Positions 6,574 to 44,457 of a DNA stretch of 64,000 nucleotides are shown here, piece by piece. Position 1 is the first letter of the stretch; each line of letters starts with the position of its first letter. The notes under the pieces are model-generated. The model saw only the letters and a list, made by a program, of their open reading frames with translations. It had not been told where the DNA came from and made no database searches. A program made the position numbers and the translations under genes. The stretch is from Escherichia phage JS10: the sequence record EU863409, one strand, 5' to 3'.

Positions 6574-6650
6574 AATATTACCTTTTGTTTAGGAATTAGG
6601 TTTATTCTCCATAAGAGCCATTATAACATGGCTCTCGATAAAGTAAACTA

Positions 6651-7719: not shown

Positions 7720-7761
7720 GTTGATAGGGTAGATAATATCATGTCATGAGGAGAAGTAAAC
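7720..7761 (-). promoter_or_regulatory. early-promoter cassette
   Basis: minus strand GTTTAC-N17-TATTAT, then conserved leader with GAGGAG RBS. Confidence 0.55.
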
Positions 7762-11199: not shown

Positions 11200-11814
11200 T
11201 CAGTAAGAAAGAACGGAAAGATTCCAAATGGTGTAATTATTCCATTTAGGATTTCTCTCAATAGAGTCTACGCGTAGCGTAGTTCCCGCAGGGAACATCA
11301 TCTCATCTTCATCATTAATTAATTGTAAGTTTGCTACACGTGTAGATTCAGGAAATGCGCCTGGGAACTCTTCAGGGGGCGCAGCACATAACATTTTAAA
11401 GATTTCTTCCTGATAATTGTACACAAATGGTGCATCATTAATACAAAAGATATTAAATGTGCCGTAGAAGTTATAAGATGCGAAATTCCTTGCTACGTTG
11501 AAGTCTTTAGAGAAGCTCATCACACGGTCGAATTCAATTACCGCACCCACACACATTGTGGACTCTAGATACTTCAGGGTCTTTTTAGATATACCGCGAT
11601 AGAGCTTATCAGGCACTACAGAAGTCAGGTTCTTACGAATAATTTTGTTCAGAGTTTCCTGGATAGAATCAGGTTTATTTTCCATACACTGCCAGAGCGT
11701 GCTCTGTTCTAAATCAGAATACACCTCATCAATTTCTATCTGGGTATTCTCACGGAAATCATCGCATTTGGCATTGTTGATAAATTCTGCTAATTTATGG
11801 CTTGGATATAACAT
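11200..11814 (-). CDS. modA: ADP-ribosyltransferase ModA-like
   Basis: 204 aa; LYRG motif; paralogous to next ORF; T4 order srd-modA-modB. Confidence 0.65.
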   Translation of the reverse strand: MLYPSHKLAEFINNAKCDDFRENTQIEIDEVYSDLEQSTLWQCMENKPDSIQETLNKIIRKNLTSVVPDKLYRGISKKTLKYLESTMCVGAVIEFDRVMSFSKDFNVARNFASYNFYGTFNIFCINDAPFVYNYQEEIFKMLCAAPPEEFPGAFPESTRVANLQLINDEDEMMFPAGTTLRVDSIERNPKWNNYTIWNLSVLSY

Positions 11815-11827
11815 ATTATTCTCCTCA

Positions 11828-11869
11828 GTTGATAGAAAGATAGTACCACAAGCTTCCTTGCCTGTAAAC
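11828..11869 (-). promoter_or_regulatory. early-promoter cassette
   Basis: gttgatagaaagatagta...gtaaac, overlapping the modB stop. Confidence 0.5.
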
Positions 11870-12438
11870 TAAAAATCCAACATTTTTAAATGAATTATTT
11901 TGTACTCGATTTCGTATGGGTCTCTTTTGATAGTTTCGATTTCCACAATCTCAAACCGTGATAGACTAGAGACCATGAACTCACATTCAGTTTCAACCAT
12001 ATCATAGAGGTCAATACGGGTTTCATCTATTTCAAGTTCGTCCACATTCCCTGCAAGAACAAGGTCGATAGCATGATTGTAGTAGTCAAAAATGAAGGGT
12101 GCATTCCTGAGACTTAAGATGGTTTTGGTTCCATATTCCCATGCCCCTGCGAACTGACGAGCCTGAGAGTATTGTGTACTAAAAGAAGTAACCCGACCAG
12201 GAGACCAGTGGCACCCTACTGAAAGGAGCTCTAATTGCTCAAGTTCTCTGGTGGTAATCCCACGATAAAGCTCTACCGGAACCACTGAAGTGACATGCTT
12301 ACGAACCAGTTTGTCTAGGTCGTAATGGAAGTTAGGGTCTTTTTTGGCATCCAGACATTTCTCTAACAACGCTTGTTCAGATTTTGAAAATTTGGAATTG
12401 ATTCGGTCTTGATAAAGACATTTTTGTTCGATGTTCAT
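11869..12438 (-). CDS. modB: ADP-ribosyltransferase ModB-like
   Basis: 189 aa; ELYRG motif; paralog of the modA ORF. Confidence 0.65.
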   Translation of the reverse strand: MNIEQKCLYQDRINSKFSKSEQALLEKCLDAKKDPNFHYDLDKLVRKHVTSVVPVELYRGITTRELEQLELLSVGCHWSPGRVTSFSTQYSQARQFAGAWEYGTKTILSLRNAPFIFDYYNHAIDLVLAGNVDELEIDETRIDLYDMVETECEFMVSSLSRFEIVEIETIKRDPYEIEYKIIHLKMLDF

Positions 12439-12440
12439 AT

Positions 12441-12462
12441 GACCTCCGGTGATTTAGAGGTC
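12441..12462 (-). promoter_or_regulatory. RBS-sequestering hairpin in modB leader
   Basis: inverted repeat gacctc/gaggtc (6 bp) with 10-nt loop; the GGAGG RBS lies in the 3' arm. Confidence 0.45.
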
Positions 12463-12491
12463 ATTATAACATGAAGGGAAGGGTTGTAAAA
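12463..12491 (-). promoter_or_regulatory. early-type promoter of modB
   Basis: minus strand TTTTAC-N17-TATAAT, directly abutting the hairpin. Confidence 0.5.
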
Positions 12492-12493
12492 CT

Positions 12494-12682
12494 TTATTTT
12501 ACCCAAGGAGCCCAGGGTGGAGGGTCTTGATAGTAAGAAGCAAGGTCACTAAGAACATCTTTAGGCAACTTAAAACCGTGCTTCTGTATAATCATATCAA
12601 GTTCATTGACAAGGTCAATAGGCGGCTCCTGAGTTGTTTCAGGCTCAGGGTCCGGAATGACGAACATATCAAATAAGTCCAT
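12494..12682 (-). CDS. hypothetical protein
   Basis: 62-aa acidic, Pro-rich ORF. Confidence 0.4.
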   Translation of the reverse strand: MDLFDMFVIPDPEPETTQEPPIDLVNELDMIIQKHGFKLPKDVLSDLASYYQDPPPWAPWVK

Positions 12683-13173
12683 TAGTAACCACCGATAGGA
12701 CCATAACCATACATACGAGCTCGTAACTTAGCATCACGAATAGCTTCTTCGGTCAGGGTAAAGCGCAAACCGATATCAAAGTGTTTCCAAATCTGACATT
12801 CTACTTCCGTCAGGTCTTCGACCGTAGAAATCAGATAAGTACGACCTTTAAGACGTTCATTAGCCATTTTATCTCTATCTTTATAGAAAATATCCGTTGT
12901 TCCTTCGGCATACGGGTCTGCCGGATAACGATAGCCTTTGATATGCAAGGCTTGAGCCACACTAAAAGGACACCCATCAGCAACATCAACGTTTTGATTA
13001 TGGCGTACTTTCATCATAACATTTTCAGGAAGCTTGATATCTTTTAAGCGCGTTTCTAACTGGGTGATAGAATTCATACCATTGTCAACAAGGATAAGAC
13101 TTGCTGTAGCATCATAAGGACTCGTTTGACCTGATGAATCACGCACATGGAATTCGAGTTCATAGACTTTCAT
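12682..13173 (-). CDS. hypothetical protein (T4 mrh position)
   Basis: 163-aa ORF; assigned by synteny only. Confidence 0.4.
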
Positions 13174-13323
13174 TATGTTTTCCTCTTTTTAGTTTACCTA
13201 CTAAAGGACCATCCGGAATTTTATTTTCCTGGATGTATTTCTCGTTTTCTTCCATCATTTTACTACCAATTTTAAGAAGCAAATCCATTGCCTCTTTAGT
13301 ACGTGCTTCAGCTTCTTCAATAG

Positions 13324-14047: not shown

Positions 14048-14114
14048 AGTGTTCTCCTCTATAAGATACGTCTATCTTAACATGGTCTACTCGTAAAGTA
14101 AACTACTAAAACGA

Positions 14115-14149: not shown

Positions 14150-14383
14150 TCATGCCGCTGGAGTTACTTTAAACAAGTCTTCGTTTGCCGTAATCCATGC
14201 CTCCCGGTCATCCTTCTCAAAAACGGTAGAATATGCTGCATCTTTAGAAGGGAAAGTCTGGTAATGAGAGCCCGCAATTTTGTGGACATCTGAATACAGA
14301 GTAAAATCAATGGAAATTTCTTTGCCTTCTACAGTACCACCGGTGACGTCACGGGTAGCTGTTTTGATATTAACATAAGCCAT
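14150..14383 (-). CDS. soc: small outer capsid protein Soc
   Basis: 77 aa; MAYVNIKT...GKEISIDFTLYSDVHKIAGSHYQTFPSKDAAYSTVFEKDD matches T4 Soc closely. Confidence 0.85.
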   Translation of the reverse strand: MAYVNIKTATRDVTGGTVEGKEISIDFTLYSDVHKIAGSHYQTFPSKDAAYSTVFEKDDREAWITANEDLFKVTPAA

Positions 14384-14451: not shown

Positions 14452-14682
14452 TTAAAACATATCGTCGACAAACATTTTACTATTTAAAGCAATCCATTCC
14501 TCCCTTTGGTCTTCTTCAAAGACCGGAGTATAAATTGGTTTTTCAGTAATAGAAATTGTATAGTTTGCACCAGCAACACGGTTAACATTGGAATAAAGAT
14601 TAAAATTAACCGAAGCTTTTCTGTTACCAATAGTCATATCGCCGTCAACATGAACGAAGGTCTTGATGTTTACATAAGCCAT
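14452..14682 (-). CDS. Soc paralog (divergent second copy)
   Basis: starts MAYVNIKT at ATG 14680-14682 (track gives 14694); 76 aa, alignable along its whole length with the soc ORF. Confidence 0.7.
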   Translation of the reverse strand: MAYVNIKTFVHVDGDMTIGNRKASVNFNLYSNVNRVAGANYTISITEKPIYTPVFEEDQREEWIALNSKMFVDDMF

Positions 14683-14724
14683 GCAATTCTCCATTTTATT
14701 AATTACATGACTTATTTATTAGTA

Positions 14725-39031: not shown

Positions 39032-39058
39032 TATACTCTGGTCCCAAGAGTTTGTAAA

Positions 39059-44415: not shown

Positions 44416-44457
44416 GTTGATAAAAGGATTATACTCCATCCATCCTTGGATGTAAAC
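44416..44457 (-). promoter_or_regulatory. early-promoter cassette
   Basis: minus strand GTTTAC-N17-TATAAT (perfect -10), GAGGAG RBS in leader. Confidence 0.6.

What the first reader, a model, noticed from the sequence alone, without database searches (positions are those of the whole stretch)
12436..12491. Promoter placed so that its transcript would escape an RBS-sequestering hairpin upstream of modB
A perfect -10 (TATAAT, with TTTTAC 17 nt upstream) abuts a 6-bp stem (GACCUC/GAGGUC) whose 3' arm contains the modB Shine-Dalgarno GGAGG. Transcripts reading through from upstream would fold the RBS into the hairpin. Transcripts starting about 7 nt after the -10 would start inside the 5' arm and leave the RBS free. 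This is the same logic as the known T4 gene e and soc control, but here with an early-type promoter.
Basis: partly seen in the sequence, partly recalled or inferred. Interest (0 to 1): 0.5.

Follow-up and report, generated by a model that had tools for sequence, protein, structure and literature searches.

The report
Early promoter gating modB translation

Summary
On the minus strand, a perfect T4-type early promoter (GTTTTACA, TGn, TATAAT; 12492-12463) runs straight into a hairpin. The hairpin has a 9-bp core, AUGACCUCU/GGAGGUCAU, plus an outer helix. Its 3' arm is the modB Shine-Dalgarno, and it folds far better than shuffled sequence (z about -5).

Opening the ribosome-binding region costs about 16 kcal/mol in read-through RNA. 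It costs about 2.5 kcal/mol in RNA started at the predicted +1 (12456-12454).

The same layout precedes modB in T4 and at least eight other lineages. Stem sequences differ, base pairs covary and G-U pairs are frequent, so the structure is selected in the sense-strand RNA. The hairpin is as strong as the validated T4 gene e and gene 49 hairpins.

It is not a one-off. About a quarter of early promoters here and in T4 (motB.2, nrdC.8, regB, denV) carry an anti-SD upstream of +1.

Anatomically it is a PeSL-type promoter/stem-loop cassette. It lacks a terminator U-tract, and SD sequestration was not found in the PeSL papers I read.

No 5' ends or translation data exist. I class it as a new variant of a known kind, of moderate interest.

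The parts
12494..12682 (-). modA.2 orthologue (62 aa). It is the last gene of the upstream mrh.2-to-modA.2 block. Its stop codon TAA (12496-12494) lies about 30 nt upstream of the hairpin core.
   Evidence: ORF. It matches phrog_1647, and JS98 and T4 annotate the equivalent gene as modA.2.
12493..12500 (-). A-rich stretch (AAAATAAA) just upstream of the -35, in the position of an UP element. It contains the modA.2 stop codon.
   Evidence: Sequence. An A-rich stretch at -40 to -44 is typical of T4-type early promoters (PMC1524935).
12485..12492 (-). -35 element GTTTTACA, the T4 early type GTTTAC(A).
   Evidence: TTTAC is invariant (the G before it nearly so) across the 20 aligned modB elements.
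12469..12484 (-). C/U-rich 16-nt spacer ending in the extended -10 motif TGn (TG at 12471-12470).
   Evidence: The TG is invariant in alignment A2.
12463..12468 (-). -10 hexamer TATAAT. Its last two bases (12464-12463) are the first two pairs of the hairpin core.
12454..12456 (-). Predicted transcription start (+1 at 12456, with a purine start at 12455 or 12454 more likely). This is inferred, not mapped.
   Evidence: In T4 early-promoter numbering the last T of the -10 is at -7 (PMC1524935). RNA starting here is unstructured.
12456..12464 (-). 5' arm of the hairpin core, AUGACCUCU (the anti-SD). It lies upstream of or at the predicted +1, so it is present only in read-through RNA.
   Evidence: Fold. 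Covariation.
12448..12455 (-). 8-nt loop, AAAUCACC.
12439..12447 (-). 3' arm, GGAGGUCAU. It contains the modB Shine-Dalgarno GGAGG (12447-12443) and the 4-nt spacer before the AUG.
12436..12438 (-). modB start codon. It sits in a small internal loop between the core and outer helices here. In most other genera it pairs with the TAT of the -10 (TATGAT with AUC-AUG).
12468..12475 (-). 5' strand of the outer helix (UUCAUGUU, the extended -10 region).
   Evidence: MFE and centroid of the 81-nt and 141-nt folds.
12427..12435 (-). 3' strand of the outer helix (codons 2-4 of modB).
11869..12438 (-). modB, an ADP-ribosyltransferase of 189 aa. This is the gene under control.
14074..14103 (-). Upstream early-type promoter in front of mrh.2 (GTTTAC, 17 nt, TGt TAAGAT). 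It is the likely source of read-through transcripts. No terminator-like site lies between it and modB.
   Evidence: Sequence. Terminator scan. The equivalent T4 promoter is named Pe15.0 (PMC6024815).

Best explanation
The element is a composite cassette: a strong sigma-70 (T4 early-type) promoter fused to an RBS-sequestering stem-loop. It acts as a translational insulator for modB.

RNA polymerase arriving from upstream comes from the early promoter before mrh.2, and possibly from middle or late promoters further up. It transcribes the whole inverted repeat. In that RNA the anti-SD (AUGACCUCU) overlaps the -10 and discriminator, and it pairs with GGAGGUCAU. An outer helix brackets the AUG. 30S subunits therefore cannot bind.

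Polymerase that initiates at the cassette's own promoter starts at about 12456-12454, after the anti-SD. Its 17-18-nt leader is unstructured and modB is translated.

ModB synthesis would thus be tied to the firing of its own early promoter. It would stop when early promoters are shut off, whatever read-through RNA persists.

What is shown (in silico):
- the promoter and hairpin exist;
- both are conserved;
- the helix covaries on the sense RNA strand;
- the closed/open energy difference is large.

What is inferred:
- the start site;
- the translational consequence;
- the biological rationale, namely dose and time limitation of a toxic host-takeover enzyme;
- possibly Rho-dependent polarity on the untranslated read-through RNA.
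For: **Structure.** The hairpin gives z = -4.75 and -5.44, with 0 of 200 shuffles as stable.

**Energy switch.**
- TIR opening energy is 16.2 kcal/mol in read-through RNA and 2.4 in promoter-initiated RNA. The z-score against shuffled upstream sequence is 5.3.
- The same switch holds in all 20 distinct modB elements, at 14.9-22.1 against 1.6-4.6 kcal/mol.

**Conservation.** Promoter plus hairpin is present in Dhakavirus, Tequatrovirus (T4), Mosigvirus, Moonvirus, Winklervirus, Karamvirus, Gaprivervirus and Klebsiella phages. A variant is present in RB49.

**Covariation.**
- 81.9% of cells pair in register, against 36-54% when the 3' partner is slid.
- 7 pairs and 30 cells show changes on both sides (0 of 500 shuffles reach this).
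- For example, columns 32:60 are AU in 11 and GC in 8 sequences. Columns 33:59 are GC 9, AU 5, GU 2, UA 1.
- RNAalifold independently predicts the same 12 pairs.
- Frequent U-G pairs fit sense-strand RNA, not DNA or a protein operator.

**Promoter.**
- TTTAC and the TG are invariant (the G before TTTAC nearly so), and the -10 is nearly invariant.
- Perfect promoters number 4 in the window against 0.2 by chance.
- T4 has a named early promoter, Pe12.8, with modA and modB downstream (PMC6024815).
- ModA and ModB are early proteins in T4 proteomics (PMC9697503).

**Benchmark.** Opening energies are e 15.8, gene 49 15.6, soc 8.8 and T4 modB 15.3 kcal/mol. The e hairpin is reported to reduce lysozyme synthesis 100-fold (PMC3014915).

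**Read-through is expected.** An upstream early promoter exists, and no terminator-like site lies before modB.

**Class behaviour.**
- A gain of at least 6 kcal/mol occurs at 5 of 20 promoter-linked TIRs against 3 of 100 others (Fisher p = 0.003).
- The orthologous genes show it in T4: motB.2, nrdC.8, regB and denV.
- Their helices covary between T4 and the window.
Against: - No transcript 5' ends, structure probing or translation data exist for this phage.
- Assigning T4 Pe12.8 to this site rests on position only.
- Both the upstream and the local promoter are early-type. The temporal logic is therefore less clear-cut than for the late-gated e and soc, and the benefit (insulation, dose control) is inferred.
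- Folding was computed on isolated RNA. In vivo, ribosomal protein S1, helicases or co-transcriptional kinetics could open the helix.
- The strongest pairs (-10 with AUC-AUG, anti-SD with SD) are invariant because of their other roles and say nothing either way. Covariation rests on about 5 pairs in related sequences.
- The PeSL papers showed that one such stem-loop (phi1 PeSL211/210) is a strong transcription terminator. The RB49 modB version has a U6 tract. Attenuation of transcription may therefore be part, or the origin, of the function.
Confidence: 0.68

Rival explanations
1. The stem-loop is mainly a transcription terminator, attenuator or 3'-end stabiliser for the upstream mrh.2-to-modA.2 transcripts. 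This is the published PeSL reading. On this view its overlap with the modB RBS is a by-product of a very short intergenic space.
For: - PeSL stem-loops are interpreted as terminators/attenuators, and one was a strong terminator in a lacZ test (PMC2839356).
- Phage Moon's record annotates the homologous hairpin as a 'terminator'.
- The RB49 version is followed by UUUUUU.
- Many 3' ends of T4 early RNAs are thought to be stable ends rather than termination sites (PMC6024815).
Against: - In the window the 3' arm is followed by AUGAACAUCG, with only 2 U in 10 nt.
- The terminator scan did not call it, although it did call the soc terminators nearby.
- In every Tevenvirinae lineage the 3' arm is exactly the SD plus the spacer before the AUG, and the helix extends over the AUG. 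A terminator does not need that.
- In the sister cases (motB.2, regB, denV, nrdC.8) the two strands are about 30 nt apart and enclose the -10 and +1. That geometry is poor for a terminator but fits SD masking.
- The two functions are not mutually exclusive. Untranslated read-through RNA could be terminated by Rho.
Confidence: 0.17
2. The inverted repeat works at the DNA level. It could be an operator for a dimeric repressor, a cruciform that modulates promoter activity, or only a recombination linker for PeSL-type module shuffling, with no RNA role.
For: - The repeat overlaps the -10 and +1, a classic operator position.
- PeSLs are proposed recombination linkers (PMC2839356, PMC4122927).
- The JS98/window indel ends exactly at the -35.
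Against: - The stem sequence is not conserved between genera, but pairing is. An operator would conserve sequence.
- Many pairs are U-G. For example, 37:54 is UG in 10 of 20 sequences, 35:57 in 8 of 20 and 26:66 in 18 of 20. These would be C-A mismatches on the other strand and in a cruciform.
- A recombination-linker role does not explain why the 3' arm is always the SD.
Confidence: 0.05
3. The hairpin's main role is to protect the GGAG of the modB SD in long transcripts from the phage RegB endoribonuclease or from RNase E. On this view it controls mRNA life-time rather than translation.
For: [quoted passage not shown]
- The regB gene itself carries the same promoter/anti-SD design.
Against: - The modB context GGAG-GUCAUAU matches only about 4 of 7 positions of the strong-site consensus GGAG-RAYARAA. 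I read this directly against the consensus quoted, so modB is not a predicted strong RegB target.
- A protected but closed TIR would still be untranslatable, so this adds to the main explanation rather than replacing it.
Confidence: 0.06
4. A promoter-like sequence and a hairpin sit next to each other by chance, with no function.
For: AT-rich phage DNA yields many promoter-like hexamers. The loose scan found 13 sites against 15.2 expected by chance.
Against: - Perfect sites are 20-fold over chance.
- The hairpin gives z about -5.
- The layout is conserved with covariation in 20 variants from nine or more lineages.
Confidence: 0.02

Closest known systems
T4 gene e / soc / gene 49 / I-TevI translational gating (an RBS hairpin with an internal promoter)
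   Same: - The SD and/or AUG are sequestered in a helix on long transcripts.
- A promoter sits so that its own transcripts lack the 5' strand and are translated (PMC3014915 section 29; PMC2988022).
- Computed hairpin strength is comparable: modB 15-16, e 15.8, gene 49 15.6 and soc 8.8 kcal/mol.
   Different: - The internal promoter here is an early sigma-70 type (GTTTAC, TGn, TATAAT). It is not a late TATAAATA or a MotA-dependent middle promoter.
- The gate would therefore restrict translation to the early period or to the gene's own promoter, rather than delaying it to late times.
- The reviews read list no early-promoter case. For homing endonucleases one states 'no occurrences of early promoters'.
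- Here the -10 hexamer itself forms part of the anti-SD/anti-AUG strand.
PeSL (promoter-early stem-loop) cassettes of T4-like phages (Arbiol et al. 2010; Comeau et al. 2014)
   Same: [quoted passage not shown]
- The PST/T4 promoter consensus TTTACW-N17-TAYWAT fits.
- It is associated with indels: JS98 has an extra 230-bp ORF whose end abuts the -35.
   Different: - PeSL stem-loops are described as terminators/attenuators. For PST/T4 they are placed 'just upstream of the endogenous promoter', with the SD drawn as a separate element.
- Here the 3' arm is the SD, there is no U-tract, and the helix covaries as an SD mask.
- SD sequestration is not mentioned in the PeSL text I read.
IS10/Tn10 (and IS50) 'protection from external promoters' by fold-back inhibition
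   Same: The working principle is the same with an ordinary sigma-70 promoter. Transcripts entering from outside include a sequence upstream of the element's own start site. That sequence pairs with the transposase RBS, while transcripts from the element's own promoter lack it. Sources: Davis, Simons & Kleckner 1985, cited for sequestered translation signals in PMC13181058; the details are from my own knowledge.
   Different: - That is a transposable element protecting a transposase gene, unrelated in sequence.
- It is a single locus rather than a repeated promoter design across a phage genome.

Membership tests
e/soc/49/I-TevI-type promoter-in-hairpin translational gate | The SD and/or start codon are base-paired in transcripts coming from upstream. 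| tested here: met
   The MFE and centroid structures pair GGAGGUCAU with AUGACCUCU (z about -5). TIR opening energy is 16.2 kcal/mol. Covariation supports the helix. All of this is in silico.
e/soc/49/I-TevI-type promoter-in-hairpin translational gate | A promoter is positioned so that its transcripts lack the 5' strand of the helix. | tested here: met
   The -10 (12468-12463) overlaps the 5' arm (12464-12456). The predicted +1 is 12456-12454. RNA from there folds at only -1.9 kcal/mol. The 5' end itself is not mapped.
e/soc/49/I-TevI-type promoter-in-hairpin translational gate | The internal promoter is a late (gp55, TATAAATA) or middle (MotA box) promoter. | tested here: not met
   The sequence is GTTTTACA, 16 nt, TGt TATAAT. 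There is no TATAAATA and no TGCTT Mot box. This is the point of difference.
e/soc/49/I-TevI-type promoter-in-hairpin translational gate | A demonstrated difference in translation between long and short transcripts. | not testable with these tools
   This needs reporter fusions, toeprinting or ribosome profiling.
PeSL cassette | A strong sigma-70-like early promoter with an AT-rich upstream tract, in the intergenic space starting at the upstream stop codon. | tested here: met
   The stop TAA lies at 12496-12494 inside AAAATAAA, followed by GTTTTACA, TGn and TATAAT. TTTAC and the TG are invariant in 20 relatives.
PeSL cassette | A stable stem-loop within or next to the promoter, followed by the SD and ATG of the downstream gene. 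| tested here: met
   The difference is that the SD is inside the stem rather than after it.
PeSL cassette | The stem-loop acts as a transcription terminator or attenuator. | tested here: inconclusive
   There is no U-tract (2 U in the 10 nt from the modB ATG, which starts one base after the 3' arm) and the terminator scan did not call it. The RB49 homologue does have U6. Actual termination was not measurable here.
PeSL cassette | Association with insertions or deletions between close relatives. | tested here: met
   JS98, P479 and Ursula carry an extra ORF of about 230 bp between modA.2 and the promoter. The window lacks it, and the junction lies at the -35.
Intrinsic (Rho-independent) terminator | A GC-rich stem followed immediately by a run of U. 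| tested here: not met
T4-type early promoter | -35 GTTTAC, extended -10 TGn, -10 TAnnnT, an A-rich UP region, and activity without phage factors. | tested here: met
   All sequence features are present and conserved. Activity is not testable here. T4 has a named Pe12.8 upstream of modA/modB, matched by position only.
ModB ADP-ribosyltransferase (the downstream gene) | Sequence similarity to T4 ModB greater than to ModA, with conserved synteny. | tested here: met
   34% identity and E = 2e-24 to ModB, against 24% and 1e-4 to ModA. It matches phrog_832. The order modA.2-modB-modA-srd is the same as in T4 and JS98.
Any curated RNA family (Rfam 15) | A match to a covariance model. | tested here: not met
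   There were no matches with E up to 1 in 12300-12700, on either strand.

The most novel reading that the evidence does not exclude
The modB element is one instance of a genome-wide design rule in T-even-type phages. A quarter to a third of early promoters embed an anti-Shine-Dalgarno sequence upstream of their own +1, either in the -35/-10 spacer or over the -10.

Under this rule certain early genes are translated only from their own promoter's transcripts. Candidates are ModB, RegB, DenV, MotB.2 and NrdC.8. Shut-off of early promoters would then be an immediate translational shut-off. It would also insulate gene cassettes from their neighbours.

On this reading, many 'PeSL' stem-loops of T-even phages are SD masks rather than terminators.

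A more speculative add-on follows from ModB's known target. ModB modifies ribosomal protein S1, which helps open structured initiation regions, so ModB activity might feed back on these masked sites.
Probability: 0.4. Interest if true: 0.7.

Novelty: new variant of a known kind. Interest (0 to 1): 0.55.

Why it matters
ModB ADP-ribosylates, and attaches RNA to, ribosomal protein S1 and other translation factors. It is lethal when over-expressed in E. coli (PMC3014915; PMC10468400). How its dose and timing are limited is not described in what I could read.

A promoter-embedded SD mask would give a simple mechanism. ModB would be made only while its own early promoter fires, whatever read-through RNA exists.

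The same design sits at orthologous genes in T4 itself (regB, denV, motB.2, nrdC.8), so it can be tested directly in the model phage. It bears on three open points:

- what ends early protein synthesis;
- what distinguishes translation of immediate-early RNA from read-through (delayed-early) RNA;
- what the stem-loops of PeSL cassettes actually do.

It also matters for annotation. The hairpin has been annotated as a terminator in phage Moon. In phage Ursula the ATG inside the -10 box has been taken as the modB start codon.

Tried and rejected
- **Single-protein scans of IMG/VR.** They gave only 3-6 close relatives each.
- **DNA anchor on the modA.2 C-terminus.** It returned 120 stretches, mostly unrelated GC-rich hits. 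Only 18 encoded ModB downstream.
- **My first automatic start-codon finder.** It failed for 13 loci and was replaced by a motif-anchored extraction.
- **Papers not held.** Miller et al. 2003 (PMC150520) and Tiemann et al. 2004 and 1999 (PMC523198, PMC6157369) could not be read. Liebig & Rueger 1989 was not looked up. An earlier mention of this hairpin in the older T4 literature therefore cannot be excluded.
- **Genome-wide T4 5'-end data.** None was found in the searchable library.
- **NCBIfam.** It gave nothing for the proteins tested.
- **Rfam.** No match.
- **Intrinsic terminator.** Considered and rejected for this window because there is no U-tract.
- **DNA operator or cruciform.** Rejected because the helix covaries rather than conserving sequence, and because of the many G-U pairs.
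- **Unmasking by translational coupling from modA.2.** The stop codon is about 30 nt upstream of the core helix. That is beyond a terminating ribosome's reach. This is read from the sequence, plus general knowledge of ribosome footprints.
- **A strong RegB site at the modB SD.** Only 4 of 7 positions match the consensus.
- **A middle or late promoter.** There is no Mot box and no TATAAATA.
Full report
**Setting.** The window is a JS98-like Dhakavirus, a T4 relative in the Tevenvirinae. It is 90-96% identical to JS98-group phages over 11800-13200. All genes near the finding lie on the minus strand. Their order is:

- two soc paralogues, each with a terminator;
- mrh.2, mrh.1, srh, modA.4 and modA.3 (Mrh-like family PF24070);
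- modA.2 (12682-12494);
- a 55-nt gap;
- modB (12438-11869), modA (11814-11200) and srd (11062-10313).

The 189-aa gene is the ModB orthologue. It is 34% identical to T4 ModB (E = 2e-24), against 24% (E = 1e-4) to ModA.

- The promoter is better than described. It reads GTTTTACA (12492-12485), a 16-nt C/U-rich spacer ending in an extended -10 TG (12471-12470), then TATAAT (12468-12463). An A-rich tract lies just upstream.
- Perfect TT[TG]ACA-N16-18-TATAAT sites occur 4 times in the window against 0.20 in dinucleotide shuffles. All four are on the coding strand; three of them, modB's included, lead to a gene start in the scan.
- The hairpin is bigger than described. The core is 9 bp, AUGACCUCU (12464-12456) with GGAGGUCAU (12447-12439), and has an 8-nt loop.
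- An outer helix pairs 12475-12468 with 12435-12427, leaving the AUG in a small internal loop.
- The fold gives z = -4.75 (81 nt) and -5.44 (41 nt). None of 200 shuffles folds as well.
- In T4 early-promoter numbering the last T of the -10 is at -7 (PMC1524935). So +1 falls at 12456, or at the purines 12455 and 12454. That is the 3' edge of the 5' arm.
- RNA starting there folds at only -1.9 kcal/mol (z = +0.35).

**2. What it is: comparative evidence.** T4 itself has the same layout in its 67-nt modA.2-modB gap, with a different stem. It reads GTTTAC, 17 nt, TATGAT, then GAUAGCUUC/GAGGCUAUC around the SD.

- I found the same layout in JS98, Mosigvirus ST0, Moonvirus Moon and Ursula, Winklervirus LC53, Gaprivervirus P479 and VR20, Karamvirus RZH, Klebsiella phage Roth68 and several IMG/VR contigs.
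- These gave 20 distinct sequences, aligned as A2.
- TTTAC and the TG of the extended -10 are invariant, and the G before TTTAC nearly so.
- In most genera the -10 hexamer TATGAT is itself complementary to AUC-AUG. The helix therefore runs from the -10, through the discriminator, to the SD and the start codon.

The covariation tests gave the following.

- For a named 18-pair helix, 81.9% of cells pair in register. When the 3' partner is slid by 1-3 columns, 36-54% pair.
- Seven pairs and 30 cells carry changes on both sides, and 0 of 500 shuffles reach that.
- The informative pairs are the ones free to vary, between the -10 and the SD. Columns 32:60 are AU in 11 and GC in 8 sequences. Columns 33:59 are GC 9, AU 5, GU 2 and UA 1. 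Columns 34:58 and 29:63 also vary.
- RNAalifold, run independently, predicts the same 12 central pairs.
- Frequent U-G pairs point to a structure in the sense-strand RNA. They argue against a DNA cruciform or a protein operator.
- In all 20 variants, opening the TIR (ATG-14 to ATG+2) costs 14.9-22.1 kcal/mol in RNA containing the promoter region. It costs 1.6-4.6 kcal/mol in RNA begun at the predicted +1.
- No Rfam family matches the region.

**3. How it most likely works.** Read-through transcripts are to be expected.

- An early-type promoter (GTTTAC, 17 nt, TGt TAAGAT, 14103-14074) follows the soc terminator.
- No terminator-like site lies between it and modB.
- In T4, a middle promoter (P56/69) and the soc late promoter lie further upstream in the same orientation (soc late transcription from PMC3014915).

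In such RNAs the anti-SD pairs with the SD. In RNA made from the cassette's own promoter the anti-SD is absent, because the -10 overlaps it.

Computed with the same method, the opening energy of the modB TIR is 15-16 kcal/mol. That equals the classic T4 e (15.8) and gene 49 (15.6) hairpins and exceeds soc (8.8). The e hairpin is reported to lower lysozyme synthesis 100-fold (PMC3014915).

Supporting context from T4:

- T4 has named early promoters Pe11.5, Pe12.8 and Pe15.0, with modA, modB, srh and mrh downstream.
- Pe names lag current map units by about 0.3-0.5 kb. Pe12.8 therefore fits the site at about 13.17 kb, but this assignment is by position only (PMC6024815).
- ModA and ModB are early proteins in T4 proteomics.

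The rest is inferred. ModB synthesis would be tied to its own early promoter and insulated from upstream transcription. Untranslated read-through RNA might additionally be subject to Rho polarity.

The stop codon of modA.2 lies about 30 nt upstream of the core helix. A terminating ribosome should therefore not open it. I read this from the sequence and from general knowledge of ribosome footprints.

**4. It is a member of a class.** I scanned the window for T4-type early promoters followed by a gene start and found 21 pairs, all on the minus strand. For each I compared TIR opening energy in read-through and promoter-initiated RNA, with shuffles of the upstream 60 nt as control.

| -35 position | ATG | z |
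|---|---|---|
| 7760 | 7705 | 7.3 |
| 12490 (modB) | 12438 | 5.3 |
| 56071 | 56015 | 4.4 |
| 58358 | 58303 | 2.8 |
| 47126 | 47072 | 2.4 |
| 40179 | 40122 | 2.0 |

- With a uniform pseudo-start at ATG-27, a gain of at least 6 kcal/mol occurs at 5 of 20 promoter-linked TIRs. It occurs at 3 of 100 TIRs without a promoter (Fisher p = 0.003).
- The genes include RegB endoribonuclease (56015) and DenV (58303).
- The same pipeline on T4 positions 1-99,800 gives 23 pairs. The top seven are motB.2, denV, nrdC.8, modB, e.8, regB and mrh.2.
- The same orthologous genes therefore carry the design in both phages.
- Their helices differ in sequence but keep pairing. For regB the window has AUCUCCUGUAG/CUACAGGAGAU and T4 has UUUUCCUCUUGACUG/CAGUUAAGAGGAGAA.
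- In these sister cases the anti-SD lies in the -35/-10 spacer. At modB it overlaps the -10 and discriminator.

**5. Comparison with what is known.**

(a) *T4 e, soc, 49 and I-TevI; also I-TevII and III, segB and Aeh1 mobE.* The logic is the same, but the internal promoters are late or middle. The reviews I could read list no early-promoter example. For homing-endonuclease genes one states there are 'no occurrences of early promoters' (PMC3014915 section 29; PMC2988022).

(b) *PeSL cassettes* (Arbiol 2010, PMC2839356; Comeau 2014, PMC4122927).

- The anatomy is the same: stop codon, AT-rich tract, strong early promoter, a stem-loop in one of five positions relative to the promoter, then SD and ATG.
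- The PST/T4 promoter consensus TTTACW-N17-TAYWAT fits.
- PeSLs are linked with indels. Here, JS98, P479 and Ursula carry an extra ORF of about 230 bp whose end abuts the -35, and the window lacks it.
- Those papers read the stem-loop as a terminator/attenuator and draw the SD as a separate element. In the text I read, SD sequestration is not proposed.
- In this window the hairpin has no U-tract and the terminator scan does not call it. The RB49 version does have U6, so termination may be ancestral or additional.

(c) *IS10/IS50 'protection from external promoters'.* The principle is the same with an ordinary sigma-70 promoter (Davis et al. 1985, cited in PMC13181058; details from my own knowledge). 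It is an analogy of mechanism, not a relationship.

**6. Rivals.**

- *Terminator, attenuator or RNA-end stabiliser (about 0.17).* It is supported by the PeSL lacZ test, by Moon's 'terminator' annotation and by the RB49 U-tract. It is weakened by the absence of a U-tract here and by the fact that the 3' arm is always exactly the SD.
- *DNA-level operator, cruciform or recombination linker only (about 0.05).* Sequence turnover with retained pairing and the many G-U pairs argue against it.
- *RegB or RNase protection (about 0.06).* Structure does protect GGAG from RegB. But the modB context matches only 4 of 7 positions of the strong-site consensus. A protected closed TIR is still untranslated.
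- *Chance (about 0.02).*

**7. Limits.**

- Nothing here is experimental for this phage.
- The start site is predicted from promoter geometry.
- Folding was computed on isolated RNA.
- Covariation rests on about five informative pairs in related sequences, and the shuffle control is not a probability.
- Key older T4 papers (Miller 2003, Tiemann 1999 and 2004) could not be read, and Liebig & Rueger 1989 was not looked up. An earlier description of this particular hairpin, or of the early-promoter design, cannot be excluded.

**Verdict.**

- The element is a conserved early-promoter/SD-mask cassette. It works like the e/soc gate and is built like a PeSL.
- It is a new variant of a known kind and one instance of a recurring design.
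- Interest is 0.55.

Noticed in passing
window minus strand. -35 positions and gene starts: 7760 to ATG 7705; 56071 to 56015; 58358 to 58303; 47126 to 47072; 40179 to 40122: Five other early-type promoters carry a sequence complementary to the downstream SD in their -35/-10 spacer. One example is TCTCCTCATG...CATGAGGAGA at 7760. Read-through RNA would mask those ribosome-binding sites as well. The genes are a MotB.2-like protein, RegB endoribonuclease, DenV, an NrdC.8-like protein and a 58-aa ORF. The T4 orthologues show the same design with covarying helices.
   Followed up: partly
window minus strand, just after the -10 at promoters with -35 at 44456, 27040, 40179, 7760, 57897, 48837, 48525, 11868 and about 11130: A recurring motif cTATCAAC lies around the predicted +1 of many early promoters. 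It is complementary to the TGATA of the extended -10 region and forms a small inner hairpin in read-through RNA. It is absent at the modB promoter, where AUC-AUG plays the equivalent pairing role in most genera.
   Followed up: partly
window 12494-12492, compared with L002 (JS98) 2207-2440: JS98, P479 and Ursula have an extra ORF of about 230 bp (phrog_14077 in Ursula's record) between modA.2 and the modB promoter. The window lacks it, and the junction sits exactly at the -35. In the window and two close relatives the -35 reads GTTTTAC rather than GTTTAC. This is the kind of indel attributed to PeSL-mediated shuffling.
   Followed up: partly
window 11868-11840 (minus strand): modA has its own early-type promoter here (TTTACA, 17 nt, TGg TACTAT, then ctatcaac) and no SD masking. 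In T4, modB and modA overlap (ATGA) and share one promoter.
   Followed up: partly
window 14150-14383 and 14452-14694 (minus strand); terminators at 14137-14118 and 14446-14429: There are two tandem soc-family genes (phrog_1715, 41% identical to each other). Each is followed by a near-identical GGAACC-UUCG-GGUUCC terminator. JS98 and T4 have a single soc.
   Followed up: partly
L004 (Citrobacter phage Ursula) 832; L005 (phage Moon) 811-843: These look like annotation errors caused by this element. Ursula's modB start is placed on the ATG inside the -10 box (TATGAT), about 27 nt upstream of the SD-preceded ATG. Moon's record labels the SD-masking hairpin as a 'terminator', and that feature overlaps the annotated RBS and start codon.
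   Followed up: yes
window minus strand, -35 at 6647 and at 39058: Two strong early-type promoters have a hairpin straddling the -10 (GAGAGCCAUguuauAAUGGCUCU and GGGACCagaguauaauGGUCC). Neither hairpin involves the downstream SD. These fit the PeSL subclass 'stem-loop overlapping the -10', and their role is unknown.
   Followed up: no
window 12618-12591 (minus strand, inside modA.2): A promoter-like site (TTGACC, 16 nt, TATGAT with TG, 10/12) lies inside the modA.2 coding sequence. If active, its transcripts would contain the whole modB hairpin and be closed. Its conservation was not checked.
   Followed up: no
L010 (RB49) about 850-897: The RB49 modB upstream region reads TTGACA, 17 nt, TATTAT, then GCCUCC...GGAGGC followed by UUUUUU and the ATG. 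Here the stem-loop both contains the SD-like GGAGG and looks like a canonical terminator. It may be a bridge between the 'terminator' and 'SD mask' readings of PeSL stem-loops.
   Followed up: partly
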